Shown here piece after piece: positions 24,183 to 38,360 of a stretch of 64,000 nucleotides of DNA. A program made the translations under genes and the position numbers. Under the pieces are notes generated by a model, which was given only the letters and a program-made list of their open reading frames with translations, was not told the origin of the DNA and did not search any database. The stretch spans positions 1,272 to 65,271 of the forward strand of contig JAQAZP010000279.1 of assembly GCA_032127265.1 (NCBI GenBank), written 5' to 3'. This stretch comes from Acidobacteriota bacterium (GTDB lineage Bacteria > Acidobacteriota > JAQAZP01). Numbering within the stretch: position 1 is the stretch's first letter; every line of letters begins with the position of its first letter.

Positions 24183-25070
24183 ATGACTATCACCATCCGG
24201 GACCTGACCAAAACCTACAAGGGCGGCGTGACGGCCCTCGAGGGGGTCAACGTGGAGATCCCCGCCGGCATGTTCGGCCTGCTGGGCCCCAACGGGGCCG
24301 GCAAGAGCACGATGATAAAGATTCTGGCCACCCTGCTCGAGCCCACCTCGGGCGAAGTGAGTATCGACGGCCTCGACGTCTCGAAGGACCGGCGGAAGAT
24401 CCGTTCGCGGCTGGGCTACCTGCCCCAGGAATTCGGGGTCTACCCCAAGATGAAGGCCCGGGAGTTCCTCGACTTCGTAGCCCGCCTCAACGGCATGCCG
24501 AAGAACGGGCGGGACAAGCGGGTGGACGAGATGCTGGAGAAGGTGGGGCTGGCCGATGCCGCCCGGCGCAAGGTCAAGGCCCTCTCCGGCGGCATGCTGC
24601 GGCGGCTGGGCATCGCCCAGGCGCTGATCAGCGACCCGAAGCTGCTCATCGTCGACGAGCCAACCGTGGGCCTCGACCCTGAAGAGCGGATCCGCTTCCG
24701 CGGCCTGCTCCAGGACATCGGCAAGGAGATCGTGATCATCCTCTCCACCCACATCGTGGGCGACATCTCCAGCACCTGCGAAAACCTGGTGATCCTGGAC
24801 AAGGGCAAGGTACTCTACCGCGGCTCGCCGCCGGAACTCGCCGCCAAGGCCGAGGGAAAAACCTGGGAGACGGTGGCCGAGGAGAAGGACCTGCCGGAAA
24901 TCAAGCGGCACTTCAGCGTGATCAGCACCGCCCCGCGGGGCGACCGGCTGCACCTTCGTCTGGTGGGCGAGGGGTCGGCCAACGGCCTGGAGCTGAAACC
25001 GGTGAACCCGAACCTGGAAGACGCCTATATCAACTTCATGGGCGGGCTGGAGGAGGAGAAAAATGATTGA
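24183..25070 (+). CDS. ABC transporter ATP-binding protein (ABC-2 subfamily type)
   Basis: Walker A GPNGAGKST, ABC signature LSGGMLRRLG, Walker B LLIVDEP and H-loop STHIV are all present. An RBS precedes the ATG. Confidence 0.85.
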   Translation: MTITIRDLTKTYKGGVTALEGVNVEIPAGMFGLLGPNGAGKSTMIKILATLLEPTSGEVSIDGLDVSKDRRKIRSRLGYLPQEFGVYPKMKAREFLDFVARLNGMPKNGRDKRVDEMLEKVGLADAARRKVKALSGGMLRRLGIAQALISDPKLLIVDEPTVGLDPEERIRFRGLLQDIGKEIVIILSTHIVGDISSTCENLVILDKGKVLYRGSPPELAAKAEGKTWETVAEEKDLPEIKRHFSVISTAPRGDRLHLRLVGEGSANGLELKPVNPNLEDAYINFMGGLEEEKND

Positions 25071-28000
25071 CCTCACCGGAATCATGGGTCTGGCCAAATA
25101 CGAGAGCCGGCTCCTCCGCCGCACCTGGAAGTTCTGGATCCTGGCCGTCCTCGGCCTGCTCTTCCTGGTGATTATCAACCTCTATTACGCCTTCCTGCAC
25201 AATTTCTTCTCCGGCTACTCGGGCACCATCGGGCTGCTCTCCGCCGGGCTGGTGCTGCAGATCGTCTACTCCCAGTTCATCACCCTTTTCGCCGTGCTGC
25301 TGATCTGGTTCTGTTACGACTTCCTGAGCAAGGACAGCAAGTGCCGGGTGGACGGCGTGGTCCACTCGCGCCCGCTGAGCACCTTCGGCCTGGTCTGGGG
25401 CAAATTCCTCGGGGCGCTGATCCCCACCTTTGCCACGGCCCTGATCCTCACCCTGGTCTCGGTCTGTCTGCGGTTCATCCCGATCTTCCATCTCCCCTTC
25501 CGCCTCGGCCCCTACCTGATGCACCTCTTCGTCACCATCCTCCCCGGGCTGGCCTTCATCATCGCCCTGGTCTTTTTCCTCACCCTGGTGACCAGAAGCC
25601 GGGTGGCGGCGATCATCATCGCCCACGCCTACGTGATCATCGACCTGGTGGTCTTCATCAGCTTCGGCCGCTGGATCAAGGTCCAGTTCGTGCCGCTGGT
25701 GGACTTCAGCGGCTACTCCCTGACCACCTTCCACTCCGACCTGATCGGTTTCACCGGTTTCGACCTGCTGCTGCTCCAGCGGGGATATATCATCGCGCTC
25801 ACCCTGCTGCTGCTGGCCCTCACCGCCATGTTCTACCCGCGGCTCAAGCAGGCCGACCGGAACTCGCGGCCGGTGCTGGGCACCGCCGCCGCCGCGGCCA
25901 TACTGGCCCTCTGCTACATCGGCTGGGGCCTCTGGTCGGGGCACAACGACTACACCATGCGTGAAGCGGCCCGCGCCGAGCAGCAGGCGCTGCTGGACAA
26001 CCCGCTGACCCGGGTGACCCACTACGATATCGACCTCGACCTGACCAGCGGCAGCCGGCTCACCGCCACCGCCCGGATGACGGTGCGCAACGACGGCGCC
26101 GAGACCCAGGACCGGCTGGTCTTCGTGCTGAACAGCGGTCTCGACGTGGAATCGGTCACCGGCGCCGGCGGCGGCGCGCTGGACTTCGAACGGGGGGACA
26201 CCACCCTGGTGGCGAACATCCCGGCCCTCATGCCGGGCAACGAAACCGAGGTGGCCGTGGCCTACAACGGCGGCCTGGTGTTGAACACGATCTTCCTCAA
26301 CAGCAAGGCCGAAATCAACGAACTGAAGGGCCAGGCGCGCAACAACGTGGCCATTCTCGGCTACTTGCCGTCGTATGTCGGTTCGCGCTACTCGGTGCTG
26401 CTGCCCCAGGCGCGGTGGTATCCCTCACCCAACGTTGATACCGGCTACACCTACCCGGACAAGCGCCCGGACAACTTCGCCACCGCCGACCTGCGGATCA
26501 CCGTTCCCGGCGGACAGCAGGCAGTGACCCAGGGCGCCATGGTGAACCGGGATGATTCGGGCGGAAAAGCGATCTTCACCTACCGTTCCGACGTGCCGGT
26601 TCCCGGCCTTTCGGTGAACAGCGGCGAGTACCAGGTGATCAAGGGCGAAGTGGGGCCGATGCAGCTGGCCTTCTATTTCAGCGAAAATCACGCGGCCAAC
26701 ATCGAGTTCTTCAACGACGCGCGGGACAAGATCCACGAGGAGCTGGAGACCAAGCTCTCCGACATCCAGGAGCGCACCGGCCTTGAATACCCCTACCAGG
26801 CGCTGAGCCTGGTGGAGGTCCCCGGCGCCATGCGGGCCTACTCCGAGGGCTGGAACAGCCCCAACCCGCTGATCCAGCCCGGAGTGGTGATGCTCAAGGA
26901 GGCGGGCTTCTTCTCGGCCAACTTCGAGCGGGCCTTCAAAAAGCGCACCGAGCAGGCGGAGGAGGCCGAGGAGGAAGTGAACGCCGCGCAGATCAAGGTC
27001 GATATGCTCAAGCTCTTCTTCGACCTCGACGTGGTCAGCGGCAGCCTGCTGCAGAACGCCATGCCCAACTTCTGGGGCTTCCGCCTCGACCCCAGCGGCC
27101 CGCTCTACCCGGTGGCCGGCTACTGTCTCGACAACTACCTCAAGGAAACGGTCACCGGGACCCGGCCCTTTGCCTCGGTCTACATGATGACCAACTTCCA
27201 GCAGGTTCTGGGCCAGGGGATCCAGGCCCACTTCTCCCGGAATTCCAGCTGGCAGGAAGCGTTCTACGACGCCACGGTGAACATCGACAAGGTCTACAAG
27301 GCGATCAAGGCCACGACACTGGCCGAGATGAAGCCGGAGGACGACCCCGAACTGTTCTACAACGTGATGGGGCACAAGGGCCGCGGCTTCGTGGTCACCC
27401 TGCGCGAGTATCTCGGCGAGGAGGCCTTCCGCGCGCTGGTCAACGGCCTGGTGCAGCGCCACCAGTACGGCCAGTACACCATGGAGGACCTGCGCCTGCT
27501 GGCCGCCGAGGTCTCCGACCAGGACGTGGACTGGCTCTTCGAACAGTGGACCCACAGCACCGACCTGCCGGGCTACCGGATCAAGGAGAGCGAAGCCTAC
27601 CGCATCGCCACCGACGGCGAAGCGCCGCTCTACCAGGTGCGGGTAGTGCTGGCCAACGAGGAGAACGCGTCCGGTTTCGCCATCCTGACCTTCGAAACCC
27701 GCGGCGACAAGGTGGAGCGACGGGTGCGCCTCGATGGTTTGCAGACCGTGGAAGTGGCCCTGGTGGTCCCCGACGAGCCCGAACGGCTGGTGGTGGACCC
27801 CATCCTGGCCCGGAACAAGGAACCGCTGACCAAGGATTTCAAGCTGCCCGAAGAGCCGGTGGAAGCCGAACCCTTCGAGCGGGTGGCGGTGCTGGAGACC
27901 GGTGAAGCGGAGAACGAGCTCACGGTGATCGTCGATGATCTCGACCCGGGCTTCAGCCTGGCCGGCGAAACCGGCGGCTCACTGCTGCGCTGGCGGCCCT

Positions 28001-37618: not shown

Positions 37619-37631
37619 GAAGAGGAAAGTG

Positions 37632-38360
37632 ATGATGGGGACAGTAACACTGCGCGGAAGAATCGGTTCCTGGCTGCAGCTCTTCCGGCTCTGTCTCAAG
37701 GTGACTTTTTCCACCCGCTACTGGTTCCTGCTGGTGGGCGGGCTGGTCTATTTCGTCATCCTCTGGCTGATGAACGCCTTTGGCGACGGCGACCCCTACG
37801 GCCCGACGGATGTGCTGAACGGGATCCTGGCCGCCCCCGGGGTCTTCCTCGCCATCCTGCTGGGCATGCAGCTGGTGCTCCAGGAGCGGGAAACCGGGAC
37901 CATCGAAGTGATGTTCGCCATCTCCCGCTCGCGCTACCGGGTCTGGCTGCTCAAGGCGCTGACCGTCTATATCGCCATCTTTGTGCTCCTGCTGATGCTG
38001 GCCGTGCTGACCTACATCACCATCACCGACTTCCCCTTCCTGCCGGTGCTGCTCAACAGCATGGTCCCGGCACTGGTCTTCGGCAACATGACCGTCCTCT
38101 TCTCCATCCTCACCCGCTCCTCCAACGGCGGGGCGTTGCTGGCCATCATCGTTCTCTTCCTCGTCGTCGTCTTCTTCCCGGGGGGCGCGAGTGAATCGAT
38201 CATCAACCCCTTCCTCAACTTCCAAAAGCTGGCCCGCGACCTGCCTTACGAAGAATACATCCGCATCGCGGTGCTCAACCGCCTGCTGGTGCTTGGCGCA
38301 GCCTTTAGCCTCCTCGGCCTGGCCCTCAGGCGCACCCACGCCCGCGAGCGCCTGCTGTAG
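37632..38360 (+). CDS. ABC-2 family transporter permease
   Basis: Six hydrophobic helices, ~240 aa. An AAGAGGAAAG RBS sits directly after the fusion-protein stop. Confidence 0.65.
   Translation: MMGTVTLRGRIGSWLQLFRLCLKVTFSTRYWFLLVGGLVYFVILWLMNAFGDGDPYGPTDVLNGILAAPGVFLAILLGMQLVLQERETGTIEVMFAISRSRYRVWLLKALTVYIAIFVLLLMLAVLTYITITDFPFLPVLLNSMVPALVFGNMTVLFSILTRSSNGGALLAIIVLFLVVVFFPGGASESIINPFLNFQKLARDLPYEEYIRIAVLNRLLVLGAAFSLLGLALRRTHARERLL

What the first reader, a model, noticed from the sequence alone, without database searches (positions are those of the whole stretch)
24183..38360. 14-kb co-directional locus interleaving ABC and RND efflux components with coupled start/stop codons
Order: ABC ATPase; ABC-2 permease fused to a large extracytoplasmic domain; RND adaptor lipoprotein; RND permease 1; RND permease 2::NBD fusion; ABC-2 permease. 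Four junctions overlap by 1-8 bp (25063/25070, 29701/29703, 32855/32858) or are separated by only an RBS (37618/37632). The two NBDs are clear paralogs, and the two ABC-2 permeases bracket the RND core. Each ABC-2 permease has an adjacent NBD (standalone for the giant one, RND-fused for the small one). Such tight interleaving suggests one multi-component envelope-spanning machine rather than two adjacent transporters.
Basis: partly seen in the sequence, partly recalled or inferred. Interest (0 to 1): 0.8.

Follow-up and report, generated by a model that had tools for sequence, protein, structure and literature searches.

The report
RND efflux pump fused to ABC transporter
A six-gene operon encodes a proton-driven RND efflux pump with an ATP-driven ABC transporter built into it, one RND subunit carrying an ABC ATPase on its tail; this hybrid recurs in many uncultured bacterial phyla, and I found no published description of it.

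Summary
Six co-directional genes lie at 24183-38360: NBD1, a giant ABC-2 permease, an MFP adaptor, RND1, RND2::NBD2 and a small ABC-2 permease. Their junctions overlap by 8, 1 and 4 nt or are separated by an RBS only, and a perfect hairpin follows the last stop.

The 1587-aa RND::NBD fusion is real. 48 metagenomic loci, plus L003, L083, L084, L091 and L092, carry it as one uninterrupted ORF of 1565-1598 aa. Wherever flanks exist the gene order is kept, in genomes of 35-66% GC, including two look-ups anchored on the ABC permease rather than on the RND gene.

New anatomy:
- NBD2 is split. Its beta1/A-loop strand is separated from Walker A by a roughly 175-aa insertion with four TM helices.
- The giant permease has 7 TM helices, an M1-aminopeptidase fold lacking all catalytic residues, and a Golvesin_C-like domain.
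- The small and giant permeases match TMD1 and TMD2 of single-chain, RND-free relatives, so they probably form one ABC heterodimer.
- Both RNDs invariably have a non-canonical proton relay (D407, N408, N940, R971, T978).
- The window has no outer-membrane factor gene; most relatives carry one in the cluster.

Best reading: one physically coupled ABC-RND export machine. Substrate and coupling mechanism are unknown. Seven completed literature searches found no description.

The parts
24183..25070 (+). NBD1: stand-alone ABC ATPase (295 aa) of the DrrA/GldA/NosF class. It has a canonical Walker A (GPNGAGKS), Q-loop, LSGGM signature, Walker B DE and H-loop.
   Evidence: Orthologues 45-89% identical sit at the head of the cluster in L091, L092, L086, L005 and L006.
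25063..28464 (+). Giant ABC-2 permease (1133 aa). It has an N-terminal amphipathic helix and 7 TM helices (aa 1-312). Outside the membrane it has a three-domain M1-aminopeptidase fold (aa ~316-958) with no zinc site, an acidic disordered linker (960-1028), and a Golvesin_C-like beta domain (1005-1127).
   Evidence: Pfam; hydropathy; AF2 model with pLDDT 72; Foldseek matches to IRAP/ERAP1/PepN at E~1e-20 over ~650 columns. QNAMP replaces HExxH, and the third Glu and the catalytic Tyr are also lost. The TMD matches TMD2 of single-chain relatives at hhalign probability 98.6%.
28465..28618 (.). Non-coding spacer. It is the only non-coupled junction in the operon, and it lies where most relatives carry the outer-membrane factor (OEP) gene.
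   Evidence: Sequence; OEP lies between the giant permease and MFP in L085, L087, L006 and 29 metagenome loci; the window has no OEP homologue.
28619..29703 (+). RND periplasmic adaptor (MFP). It is a probable lipoprotein (LLSAAGC). The ORF opens at TTG 28594, and the likely start is ATG 28619.
   Evidence: TIGR01730 at 217.6 bits; HlyD_D23.
29703..32858 (+). RND1: 12-TM RND permease (1051 aa), MdtB-like. Relay residues are D407, N408, N940, D941, R971 and T978 (AcrB numbering).
   Evidence: ACR_tran at 772 bits; best solved relative is MdtB 9lyq_B at 1.5e-106; relay alignment.
32855..35974 (+). RND2 moiety of the fusion (aa 1-1040). It is a paralogue of RND1 (~29% identity) with relay residues D407, N408, N940, N941, R971 and T978.
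35975..36148 (+). Two extra TM helices (aa 1041-1098) following RND TM12.
   Evidence: AF2 helices 23-43 and 50-80 of the C-terminal model, pLDDT 86.6, pTM 0.80; hydropathy.
36176..36211 (+). Detached NBD2 beta1 strand with the A-loop tyrosine (LDIAVRELKKVY, aa 1108-1119).
   Evidence: Strand 92-101 of the model with pLDDT ~97; the motif I.I..L.K.Y is conserved in nearly all 83 family sequences, with Ile, Lys and Tyr each at 90% or more; it aligns to NBD1 residues 1-12.
36224..36748 (+). Insertion inside NBD2 between beta1 and beta2 (aa 1124-1298). It consists of a cytoplasmic helix, four TM helices and a further helix.
   Evidence: The insertion is absent from the L004 variant, which has ~55 soluble residues here.
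36779..37618 (+). NBD2 core plus C-terminal domain (aa 1309-1587), with all catalytic motifs canonical.
   Evidence: ABC_tran 1314-1456; 47% identity to NBD1; Foldseek matches to TM_1403, NosF and ABCA NBDs.
37632..38360 (+). Small ABC-2 permease (6 TM, ~242 aa).
   Evidence: ABC2_membrane_2 at 30.8 bits; hydropathy; hhalign to TMD1 of single-chain relatives gives probability 87.6%, E=3.5e-6, against 4.8% for TMD2. It follows the fusion gene in nearly all loci.
38375..38421 (+). Perfect 20-bp-stem hairpin 15 nt after the last stop codon; probable operon terminator.
   Evidence: it is unique in the window.

Best explanation
The six genes encode one composite inner-membrane export machine in which an ABC-2 (type V-like) ATP-driven module is hard-wired to an MdtBC-like tripartite RND pump.

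Shown:
- The genes form a tightly coupled unit.
- NBD2 is covalently attached to RND2.
- NBD2's beta1/A-loop strand is separated from Walker A by a membrane insertion.
- NBD1 and NBD2 are ancient paralogues, both with intact catalytic motifs.
- The giant permease's ectodomain is a catalytically dead M1-aminopeptidase fold.
- The arrangement is conserved across distant lineages.

Inferred:
- The small and giant permeases form the heterodimeric membrane domain of a single ABC transporter, powered by an NBD1-NBD2 heterodimer. In effect it is a split version of the single-chain 12-13-TM peptidase-fused ABC-2 permeases.
- This module sits beside an RND1/RND2 heterotrimer because NBD2 is tethered to RND2. 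An MdtB2C-like 2:1 ratio would give one ABC module per pump.
- ATP hydrolysis moves or extracts a substrate from the cytoplasm or inner membrane, or drives the ectodomain in a NosDFY-like manner. The pseudo-peptidase ectodomain would then bind the substrate in the periplasm and hand it to the RND porter domain.
- The RND trimer, still proton-coupled through the invariant D407/R971/T978, expels it through the adaptor and an outer-membrane factor. That factor is supplied in trans in this genome and encoded in the cluster in most relatives.

The substrate is unknown. A peptide or lipopeptide-like molecule is a guess from the M1 fold.
For: - Operon structure: overlapping or RBS-only junctions and a terminal hairpin.
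- Fusion intact in 48 metagenome loci (ORFs 1569-1597 aa, 46 unique sequences), in L003, L083 and L084 as single HSPs over aa ~1-1580, and in L091 and L092 (1598 and 1588 aa). Full-length representatives of 1565-1590 aa carry the linker at the same position.
- Synteny: 29 of 29 loci with upstream flank show giant-OEP-MFP-RND1-RND2::NBD. The complete six-gene order was found from ABC-side anchors and in L002, L086 and L006. Identities range from 26% to 90% and GC from 35% to 66%.
- In variant L004 the giant-like permease sits between the two RND genes and the fusion is kept with a short linker. The linkage therefore survives rearrangement.
- Rosetta-stone evidence: relatives P0130 and P0163-P0170 have two ABC-2 TMDs in one chain. 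The small permease matches TMD1 (probability 87.6%) but not TMD2 (4.8%). The giant TMD matches TMD2 best (98.6%).
- NBD1 and NBD2 form two orthologous groups: 52% and 50% identity within groups against 41% between them. Both are fully canonical.
- The AF2 model of the C-terminal 569 aa (pLDDT 86.6, pTM 0.80) gives an even number of TM helices on each side of beta1, so the NBD stays cytoplasmic.
- D407, R971 and T978 are invariant in 46 RND2 and 27 RND1 sequences. This points to a membrane-embedded charged pair that is still under selection.
Against: - No experiment, and no multimer or co-evolution model, shows that the ABC and RND parts touch beyond the covalent tether.
- The small-to-TMD1 match is moderate (E=3.5e-6). 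The giant TMD also matches TMD1 well (97.7%).
- Homodimeric (NBD1-giant)2 and (RND2::NBD2-small)2 assemblies are not excluded.
- D408 and K940, essential in AcrB, are replaced by Asn in both RNDs, so proton coupling may differ from the textbook model.
- The window, L091 and L092 lack an OMF gene in the cluster.
- More distant relatives of the giant permease work without RND, or lie with neither an NBD nor an RND gene nearby.
- The giant model is only moderately confident (pLDDT 72, from 23 sequences).
Confidence: 0.6

Rival explanations
1. There are two mechanistically independent transporters, an ABC-2 exporter or exporters and an RND tripartite pump. They are co-encoded and fused only to secure co-expression, stoichiometry or co-localisation, for instance because they act on the same substrate pool in sequence without direct hand-over. 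Possible assemblies are (NBD1-giant)2 and (RND2::NBD2-small)2.
For: Each permease gene is translationally coupled to its own NBD. Stand-alone NBD plus peptidase-fused permease pairs exist without RND. Functional cooperation between single-component pumps and RND pumps without contact is established knowledge (Tal and Schuldiner 2009, from memory). Both NBDs are fully canonical, so homodimers would be competent.
Against: A fusion kept intact in more than 50 diverged sequences, with a conserved membrane-embedded linker, is costly if mere co-expression were the aim. The small permease resembles TMD1 and the giant permease TMD2 of a single-chain permease. An (RND2::NBD2)2 dimer sits awkwardly in a trimeric RND. 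The L004 variant keeps the linkage despite reshuffling.
Confidence: 0.2
2. This is an ATP-powered or ATP-gated RND pump. Because the canonical proton relay is broken (D408N, K940N), the conformational cycle of the RND trimer would be driven or licensed by dimerisation of the tethered NBD. The ABC-2 permeases would act as the transmission element. Energy coupling would then be primary active, or dual ATP plus PMF.
For: N408 and N940 are invariant in 46 RND2 and 27 RND1 sequences, as in the window; both positions are essential in AcrB (established knowledge). The NBD is attached directly after TM12, and TM10-12 carry the relay. The membrane insertion inside NBD2 could transmit motion. NosDFY is a precedent for an ABC-2 module that drives a partner mechanically (knowledge; NosF is a top structural match).
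Against: D407, R971 and T978 remain invariant, which suggests a working minimal proton site. RND1 has the same substitutions but no NBD. The L004 variant lacks the TM insertion. No known RND is ATP-driven. How common the D-N/N variant is among ordinary RND pumps was not determined; the background sample held only family members.
Confidence: 0.12
3. The ABC module is not an exporter but a sensor or mechanotransducer, like BceAB, FtsEX or NosDFY. It would use ATP to change the conformation of the pseudo-peptidase ectodomain, which regulates or primes the RND pump or processes a periplasmic partner.
For: The ectodomain is a catalytically dead binding fold. JGI annotates the permease as NosY-like. 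NBD2's closest structural matches include NosF.
Against: There is no regulator or two-component system in the conserved cluster. Relatives with an active M1 site look like genuine exporter/processing units.
Confidence: 0.06
4. The fusion is an artefact: a frameshift, a lost stop codon or a chimeric assembly joining an RND gene to a downstream ABC ATPase gene.
For: Several long-read assemblies show the gene broken into pieces (L001, L002, L086, L087). Most database hits are fragments.
Against: The ORF is uninterrupted in the window and in more than 50 independent assemblies at 31-82% identity. The linker is conserved and its topology is coherent.
Confidence: 0.01

Closest known systems
MdtABC-TolC (E. 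coli heteromultimeric RND pump)
   Same: One adaptor gene is followed by two paralogous 12-TM RND permease genes with overlapping stops and starts. MdtB is the best solved relative of RND1 (9lyq_B, 1.5e-106). NCBIfam hits to MdtB and MdtC are well below the equivalog cutoffs. The OMF is encoded elsewhere, as for TolC.
   Different: RND2 carries about 550 extra residues (extra TM helices plus an ABC NBD). The RND1/RND2 pair is much more diverged (~29% identity). D408 and K940 are Asn. ABC genes bracket the RND core.
NosDFY (ABC-2 module serving a large periplasmic partner in N2O-reductase maturation)
   Same: The NBDs are of the NosF class (Foldseek 7osf_B and 7o0y_B, E~1e-17, 28-29% identity). 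The permeases are NosY/COG1277-like (JGI names). An ABC-2 membrane domain is coupled to a big extracytoplasmic domain.
   Different: The ectodomain is an M1-aminopeptidase fold fused to the permease, not a separate beta-helix protein. There are no nos genes. The module is linked to an RND pump.
Peptidase-fused ABC-2 permeases (~1160-1230 aa, two TMDs plus an active M1 domain; uncharacterised, and as I recall catalogued in TCDB as an 'ABC2-2, peptidase-fused' family, which I did not verify here)
   Same: They are homologous to the giant permease (profile search; alignment). They are preceded by an overlapping NBD gene. Their TMD1 and TMD2 match the small and giant permeases.
   Different: They keep HExxH...E and the catalytic Tyr, have both TMDs in one chain, lack Golvesin_C and have no RND neighbours.
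MacAB-TolC (ABC-driven tripartite efflux pump)
   Same: ATP hydrolysis, a periplasmic adaptor and an outer-membrane factor combine in one envelope-spanning exporter. There is a large periplasmic domain on the ABC permease.
   Different: MacB has the type VII fold (4 TM, NBD fused N-terminally) and replaces the RND. Here the ABC part is ABC-2 type and coexists with two RND permeases.
Functional cooperation of single-component inner-membrane pumps with RND pumps (two-step efflux; established concept, from memory)
   Same: The logic is the same: one transporter delivers substrate to the periplasm or outer leaflet, and the RND pump removes it across the outer membrane.
   Different: In known cases the partners are unlinked genes and separate proteins. 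Here they are one operon and partly one polypeptide.

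Membership tests
RND superfamily, HAE-1/MdtBC-like tripartite pump | Full-length 12-TM permease with two large periplasmic loops (ACR_tran end to end) | tested here: met
   RND1 matches model positions 2-1020 of 1021 at 772 bits; RND2 matches 3-1020 at 616 bits.
RND superfamily, HAE-1/MdtBC-like tripartite pump | Canonical proton relay D407, D408, K940, R971, T978 (AcrB numbering) | tested here: not met
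   D407, R971 and T978 are kept. D408 is Asn and K940 is Asn in the window and in 46 of 46 RND2 and 27 of 27 RND1 orthologues.
RND superfamily, HAE-1/MdtBC-like tripartite pump | Cognate periplasmic adaptor (MFP) | tested here: met
   TIGR01730 at 217.6 bits against a cutoff of 94.9.
RND superfamily, HAE-1/MdtBC-like tripartite pump | Outer-membrane factor (OEP/TolC family) partner | tested here: inconclusive
   There is no OEP homologue anywhere in the 64-kb window (tblastn; Pfam on flanking ORFs). OEP is inside the cluster in L002, L085-L087, L006 and 29 metagenome loci. One may be supplied in trans.
RND superfamily, HAE-1/MdtBC-like tripartite pump | Membership of NCBIfam equivalogs MdtB/MdtC or the RND_permease subfamilies | tested here: not met
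   The best hit, NF033617, scores 661 and 547 bits against a cutoff of 1250. MdtB and MdtC score 415 and 418 bits against cutoffs of 1584 and 1774.
RND superfamily, HAE-1/MdtBC-like tripartite pump | Heterotrimeric assembly of the two paralogues | not testable with these tools
   The only support is invariable co-occurrence of both paralogues with a single MFP.
ABC transporter, ABC-2 / type V exporter class | NBD with Walker A, Q-loop, signature, Walker B D-E and H-loop | tested here: met
   Both NBDs show GPNGAGK[ST], LPQ, SGGM, VDEPT and STH. ABC_tran scores 118.7 and 90.6 bits.
ABC transporter, ABC-2 / type V exporter class | Six-TM ABC-2 membrane domain | tested here: met
   The small permease hits PF12679 at 30.8 bits against a cutoff of 27.2. 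The giant TMD matches, at hhalign probability 97.7-98.6%, the TMDs of relatives that carry PF12679/PF12698. Hydropathy gives 6 and 7 TM segments.
ABC transporter, ABC-2 / type V exporter class | Contiguous NBD fold (beta1/A-loop directly followed by beta2 and Walker A) | tested here: not met
   In NBD2 the beta1/A-loop strand (aa 1108-1119) is separated from Walker A by an insertion of about 175 aa with 4 TM helices. NBD1 is contiguous.
ABC transporter, ABC-2 / type V exporter class | NBD dimer plus TMD dimer stoichiometry (hetero- or homodimer) | not testable with these tools
   The heterodimer is inferred from the Rosetta-stone comparison and from the paralogue groups.
M1 zinc aminopeptidases | Multi-domain M1 fold (N-terminal beta domain, thermolysin-like domain, beta sandwich) | tested here: met
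   Foldseek matches IRAP, ERAP1 and PepN at E~1e-20 to 1e-17 over ~640-680 columns. Pfam PF01433 matches partially, at 32 bits.
M1 zinc aminopeptidases | HExxH-X18-E zinc site and catalytic Tyr | tested here: not met
   The aligned residues are Q-N-x-x-P, Gly and Gly/His. No HExxH occurs anywhere in the window protein or in P0121-P0129, whereas P0130 and P0163-P0173 keep it. It is also absent in L091, L092 and L004.
MacB-type (type VII) tripartite ABC pump | Four-TM FtsX-type permease with an N-terminally fused NBD and a periplasmic Sabre/Porter domain | tested here: not met
   There is no FtsX/MacB_PCD hit. The permeases are ABC-2 type with 6-7 TM. The MacB NBD is only a generic structural match.

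The most novel reading that the evidence does not exclude
This is a previously unrecognised class of efflux machine in which primary (ATP) and secondary (proton) energisation are combined in one covalently linked complex. In the strongest form, the RND conformational cycle itself is driven or gated by ATP, through an NBD split by a membrane insertion. The reduced relay (D407 with N408 and N940) would then reflect a changed coupling mechanism.
Probability: 0.15. Interest if true: 0.95.

Novelty: new variant of a known kind. Interest (0 to 1): 0.78.

Why it matters
RND pumps are the textbook example of proton-driven, periplasm-sampling efflux. ABC exporters are the textbook ATP-driven, cytoplasm-sampling ones. 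They are treated as alternative engines for tripartite pumps.

A conserved covalent RND-NBD fusion, bracketed by the two halves of an ABC-2 permease, suggests that nature has built a hard-wired two-stage or dual-energy exporter. If the parts are mechanically coupled, the system gives a natural way to ask three questions:
- How do cytoplasmic substrates reach RND pumps?
- Can an RND cycle be driven or gated by ATP?
- What do a split NBD and a minimal proton relay mean for coupling?

The family is abundant in uncultured FCB-group and other environmental lineages. Source names on the hits include Bacteroidales, Zixibacteria, Latescibacterota, KSB1, Acidobacteria, Hydrogenedentes and Spirochaetales. 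It is annotated only generically, so its physiological substrate is an open question. It also adds a well-documented pseudo-peptidase: an M1 fold retained as a periplasmic binding module.

Tried and rejected
- Genome-contig scan with the C-terminal alignment A1. The tool chose generic Walker-A and signature motifs, so 80 mostly unrelated ABC ATPase loci came back.
It was rerun with six Bacteroidota-type linkers (A6). The large synteny sample is therefore biased towards one clade.
- Exact look-up of the window's fusion protein found no record, and cluster look-ups gave no organism names. The window's taxon remains unknown. It is a diderm, because a porin gene is present, with 65% GC.
- Radical-SAM genes lie near several clusters and in the window. 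I considered a link to RiPP export. I rejected it because the window's rSAM proteins have no counterparts in the other loci, and the loci that share an rSAM also share downstream genes, so they are related genomes.
- Upstream ORFs 22248-23288 and 23362-24045 and downstream ORF 38419-39138 have no Pfam hit and no homologue in related loci. I do not count them as part of the system.
- The fold search against afdb50 was unavailable.
- I tried to gauge how common the D-N/N relay is among ordinary RND pumps using the session's unrelated loci. The only RND genes present were members of this same family, so the question stays open.
- Nine literature queries were submitted: seven ran, one on the peptidase-fused ABC-2 permeases returned nothing, and two were rejected for syntax. 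They covered RND plus NBD fusion terms, RND-ABC/ABC-RND, ACR_tran plus ABC_tran, 'fused to an ABC', peptidase-fused ABC-2 permeases and Golvesin. None returned a description of this architecture. Absence from this library is not proof of absence.
- Rfam and tRNA scans of the window found nothing.
- The sigma-70-type promoter scan gave only a weak candidate at 24018-24046. It is not informative for an organism of unknown promoter type.

Full report
**1. The observation**

They are 24183-25070, 25063-28464, 28594-29703, 29703-32858, 32855-37618 and 37629-38360, all on the + strand.

Pfam and NCBIfam give:
- an ABC ATPase of the DrrA/GldA class;
- an 1133-aa protein with Peptidase_M1 and Golvesin_C matches;
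- an RND adaptor (TIGR01730, 217.6 bits against a cutoff of 94.9);
- a full-length ACR_tran permease (772 bits);
- a 1587-aa protein with ACR_tran at 5-1028 and ABC_tran at 1314-1456;
- a 243-aa ABC-2 membrane protein (PF12679, 30.8 bits against a cutoff of 27.2).

Read directly, the junctions are ATGATTGA (8-nt overlap), TGATG (1 nt), GTGA (4 nt) and TAA-13 nt-ATG behind GAGGAAAG. A perfect hairpin with a 20-bp stem lies 15 nt after the last stop (38375-38421) and is unique in the window.

One junction is not coupled. It is the 130-154-nt gap at 28465-28618, after which the adaptor most likely starts at ATG 28619 behind GGAAGGAG. The two NBDs are 47% identical over 275 aa, E=1e-83.

**2. Is the RND::NBD fusion real?**

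A homologue search with the C-terminal 569 aa returned hundreds of proteins at 37-45% identity covering up to 99% of the query. Many carry both PF00873 and PF00005. The source names span Bacteroidales, Prolixibacteraceae, Draconibacterium, Odoribacter, Zixibacteria, Latescibacterota, KSB1, Acidobacteria, Aminicenantes, Hydrogenedentes and Spirochaetales. Most of these are contig-end fragments.

An exhaustive phmmer search with the linker alone found full-length representatives of 1565-1590 aa with the linker at the same position.

tblastn of the window proteins against fetched loci shows the fusion as a single HSP over residues ~1-1580 in L003 (a Bacteroidales MAG), L083 and L084.

A metagenome scan with family-specific linker motifs gave 219 relatives. 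Among the 80 loci kept, 48 carry the gene as one uninterrupted ORF of 1569-1597 aa, with 46 unique sequences. An assembly or frameshift artefact is excluded. The broken copies in L001, L002, L086 and L087 appear to be error-prone assemblies with shifted frames.

**3. Is the interleaving conserved?**

All 29 metagenome loci with about 10 kb of upstream sequence show giant permease-OEP-MFP-RND1-RND2::NBD, followed by the small permease in all but one. That sample is anchored on the RND fusion and biased towards one clade, so I also anchored on the ABC side.

The giant-permease homologue P0128 is only 26% identical to the window's. It lies in L091 as NBD(319)-giant(1148)-MFP(402)-RND1(1024)-RND2::NBD(1598)-small(238), with overlapping junctions. 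P0125 (58% identical) lies in L092 with the same six genes, including the same 8-nt NBD1/giant overlap.

L006, a Porphyromonadaceae MAG, shows NBD1-giant-OEP-MFP-RND1-RND2. L002 and L086 show all six genes followed by OEP. The loci range from 35% to 66% GC.

L004 is an informative variant. Its order is RND1, then a 922-aa giant-like permease (ABC-2 TMD plus an M1-like domain, with no HExxH and no Golvesin_C), then RND2::NBD of 1437 aa, then OEP. The ABC and RND parts stay together even when the order is reshuffled.

**4. Anatomy of the fusion's C-terminal part**

Hydropathy and a confident AF2 model (83 sequences, pLDDT 86.6, pTM 0.80) agree. After RND TM12 the chain runs as follows:
- two TM helices (aa 1041-1098);
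- a beta strand at 1110-1119 (pLDDT ~97);
- a cytoplasmic helix;
- four TM helices (1149-1271);
- another helix;
- the NBD from residue 1309.

The strand has the sequence LDIAVRELKKVY. It aligns with NBD1's first strand, MTITIRDLTKTY. The motif I.I..L.K.Y is conserved in nearly all 83 family members, with Ile, Lys and Tyr each at 90% or more. In ABC ATPases this is the beta1 strand ending in the A-loop aromatic residue that stacks on adenine (established knowledge).

NBD2 is therefore a split NBD with a roughly 175-aa membrane insertion between beta1 and beta2. The number of TM helices is even on both sides, so the NBD stays in the cytoplasm. In L004 the insertion is about 55 soluble residues and the two extra TM helices are missing. 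The invariant feature is the covalent RND2-NBD link; the TM helices are a clade-level elaboration.

The closest solved NBDs are TM_1403, NosF and ABCA-family NBDs.

**5. The giant permease**

Seven hydrophobic segments in aa 20-290 and the AF2 model (pLDDT 72, pTM 0.66) place the C-terminal ~840 aa outside the membrane. Foldseek matches residues ~316-958 to IRAP, ERAP1, ERAP2 and PepN at E~1e-20 to 1e-17 over ~640-680 columns. This is a complete M1-aminopeptidase fold.

In an alignment with 22 homologues, the window protein and its close subfamily (P0121-P0129) have Q-N-A-M-P where the others have H-E-x-x-H. They also lack the third zinc-ligand Glu and the catalytic Tyr. It is a pseudo-peptidase, presumably a binding module. 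An acidic disordered stretch and a Golvesin_C-like beta domain follow.

**6. A Rosetta-stone argument for a single ABC module**

The more distant relatives (P0130, P0163-P0170; 1160-1230 aa) keep the active site. They have 12-13 TM segments, which is two ABC-2 TMDs in one chain. One of them lies in a two-gene unit with a single overlapping NBD gene and no RND nearby.

Profile-profile comparison gives:

| Query | vs TMD1 | vs TMD2 |
|---|---|---|
| Small permease | probability 87.6%, E=3.5e-6, 221 columns | probability 4.8% |
| Giant TMD | probability 97.7% | probability 98.6%, E=6.7e-16 |

The two permease genes that bracket the RND core thus look like the two halves of one ancestral permease. 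This argues that they assemble into a single heterodimeric ABC membrane domain.

NBD1 and NBD2 form two orthologous groups. Mean identity is 52% and 50% within groups and 41% between them. Both have fully canonical motifs. This fits an old duplication in which both copies were retained, as expected for a heterodimer.

**7. The RND pair**

RND1's best solved relative is MdtB. The arrangement of one adaptor and two paralogous permeases mirrors MdtABC. Aligned to AcrB, MdtB and MdtC, both paralogues keep D407, R971 and T978 but have Asn at 408 and 940. This holds in 46 of 46 RND2 and 27 of 27 RND1 orthologues.

D408 and K940 are essential in AcrB (established knowledge). The relay is therefore non-canonical. 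The invariance of the buried Asp/Arg pair still argues for a functional, if reduced, proton site. I could not determine how common this variant is outside the family.

**8. What is missing**

The window has no OEP/TolC-family gene. Neither do L091 and L092. In most other relatives an OEP gene sits exactly at the position of the window's non-coding spacer, or after the small permease. This lineage presumably uses an OMF encoded elsewhere, as E. coli does with TolC. That is an inference.

**9. Interpretation**

The best-supported reading (confidence about 0.6) is one composite machine. An ABC-2 heterodimer, made of NBD1 with the giant permease and NBD2 with the small permease, is tethered through NBD2 to an RND1/RND2 trimer with its adaptor and an OMF.

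The most economical mechanism is a hard-wired two-stage export. ATP would move or extract the substrate to the periplasmic side, or move the ectodomain as in NosDFY. The dead M1 domain would bind it and present it to the RND porter. The RND would then expel it using the proton gradient.

Rivals:
- Independent transporters fused only for co-expression or co-localisation (0.2).
- An ATP-driven or ATP-gated RND (0.12). This is the most novel reading, motivated by the altered relay and the split NBD.
- A sensor or mechanotransducer role for the ABC module (0.06).
- Artefact (0.01; refuted).

**10. Known or new?**

The parts belong to known superfamilies, but several defining features fail. The RND relay is non-canonical, the NBD is not contiguous, and the M1 catalytic site is gone. 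NCBIfam (release of June 2026) has no model that claims the fusion, the giant permease or the small permease.

Source annotations are generic: 'efflux RND transporter permease subunit', 'ATP-binding cassette domain-containing protein', and 'ABC-type multidrug transport system ATPase subunit/preprotein translocase subunit SecF'.

Seven completed full-text searches and one that returned nothing found no description of an RND-NBD fusion or of this operon. The library is incomplete, so this is only absence of evidence.

I class it as a new variant of known kinds. It would become categorically new if energy coupling between the two engines were demonstrated.

Noticed in passing
window 29703-35974 (RND1, RND2); L093-L172: Both RND paralogues have a non-canonical proton relay: D407, R971 and T978 are kept, while D408 and K940 are both Asn. 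This is invariant in 46 RND2 and 27 RND1 orthologues. Whether the variant occurs in ordinary, NBD-free RND pumps was not determined.
   Followed up: partly
window 28465-28618: This is the only uncoupled junction of the operon. It lies exactly where most relatives carry an OEP (TolC-like) gene. The window, L091 and L092 have no OEP in the cluster, and the window has none in its 64 kb, which suggests loss or relocation of the outer-membrane factor in this lineage.
   Followed up: partly
L004 421-12935 (MAG contig CAYQOX010000030.1): A variant architecture: RND1, then a 922-aa giant-like permease without Golvesin_C, then RND2::NBD of 1437 aa with a short soluble linker and no TM insertion, then a 555-aa OEP. 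No small permease or NBD1 is seen in the fetched stretch.
   Followed up: partly
L088 10001-13387 (protein P0129): A 1128-aa homologue of the giant permease (24% identity, 93% coverage, no HExxH) lies with no NBD or RND gene nearby. Instead it sits next to MoxR-type AAA, DUF58, VWA, DUF4350 and SpoIIM-like genes. This is a different context for the same pseudo-peptidase membrane protein.
   Followed up: no
window 38375-38421: A perfect palindrome with a 20-bp stem (about 29-bp arms if the flanks are included) lies directly after the operon. It is unique in the window and could act as a bidirectional terminator shared with the minus-strand ORF 38419-39138.
   Followed up: partly
window 19283-20866 (-), 46658-47992 (+); L002, L085, L086: Radical-SAM genes lie near the cluster in the window and in three related loci. 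The window's copies have no counterparts in those loci, and the three loci share downstream genes (LacI, TonB-dependent receptor). This is probably coincidence rather than a RiPP link.
   Followed up: partly
window 22248-23288 (+), 23362-24045 (+), 21104-22216 (-), 38419-39138 (-), 39427-40017 (+): These ORFs flank the operon. They have no Pfam match, and those tested (22248-23288, 23362-24045, 21104-22216, 38419-39138, 39427-40017) have no homologue in any related locus. They may be lineage-specific genes or non-coding ORFs in high-GC sequence.
   Followed up: partly
window 40063-44328 (-): A 1421-aa ORF with no family match lies antisense to well-supported plus-strand genes: Peptidase_M10+PPC at 40033-41436, a DEAD-box helicase at 41566-43065 and a hybrid histidine kinase at 43264-46572. 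It is most likely a spurious long ORF typical of GC-rich DNA.
   Followed up: no
window 1559-17832: The neighbourhood suggests a diderm, polymer-degrading environmental bacterium. It contains a phosphate-selective porin (1559-2815), DPP-IV/S9 peptidase (5318-7597), a 1000-aa sulfatase-TPR fusion (7197-10199), a 1157-aa FAD-oxidase/CCG protein (10209-13682) and an FG-GAP/BamB-like beta-propeller with a dockerin domain (16078-17832). No tRNA or Rfam match occurs in the 64 kb.
   Followed up: no
L001, L002, L086, L087: In these assemblies the RND and giant-permease genes are split into two to four pieces by frame changes. This inflates the number of 'partial' or 'unfused' database entries for the family and could mislead automated domain-architecture counts.
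   Followed up: partly
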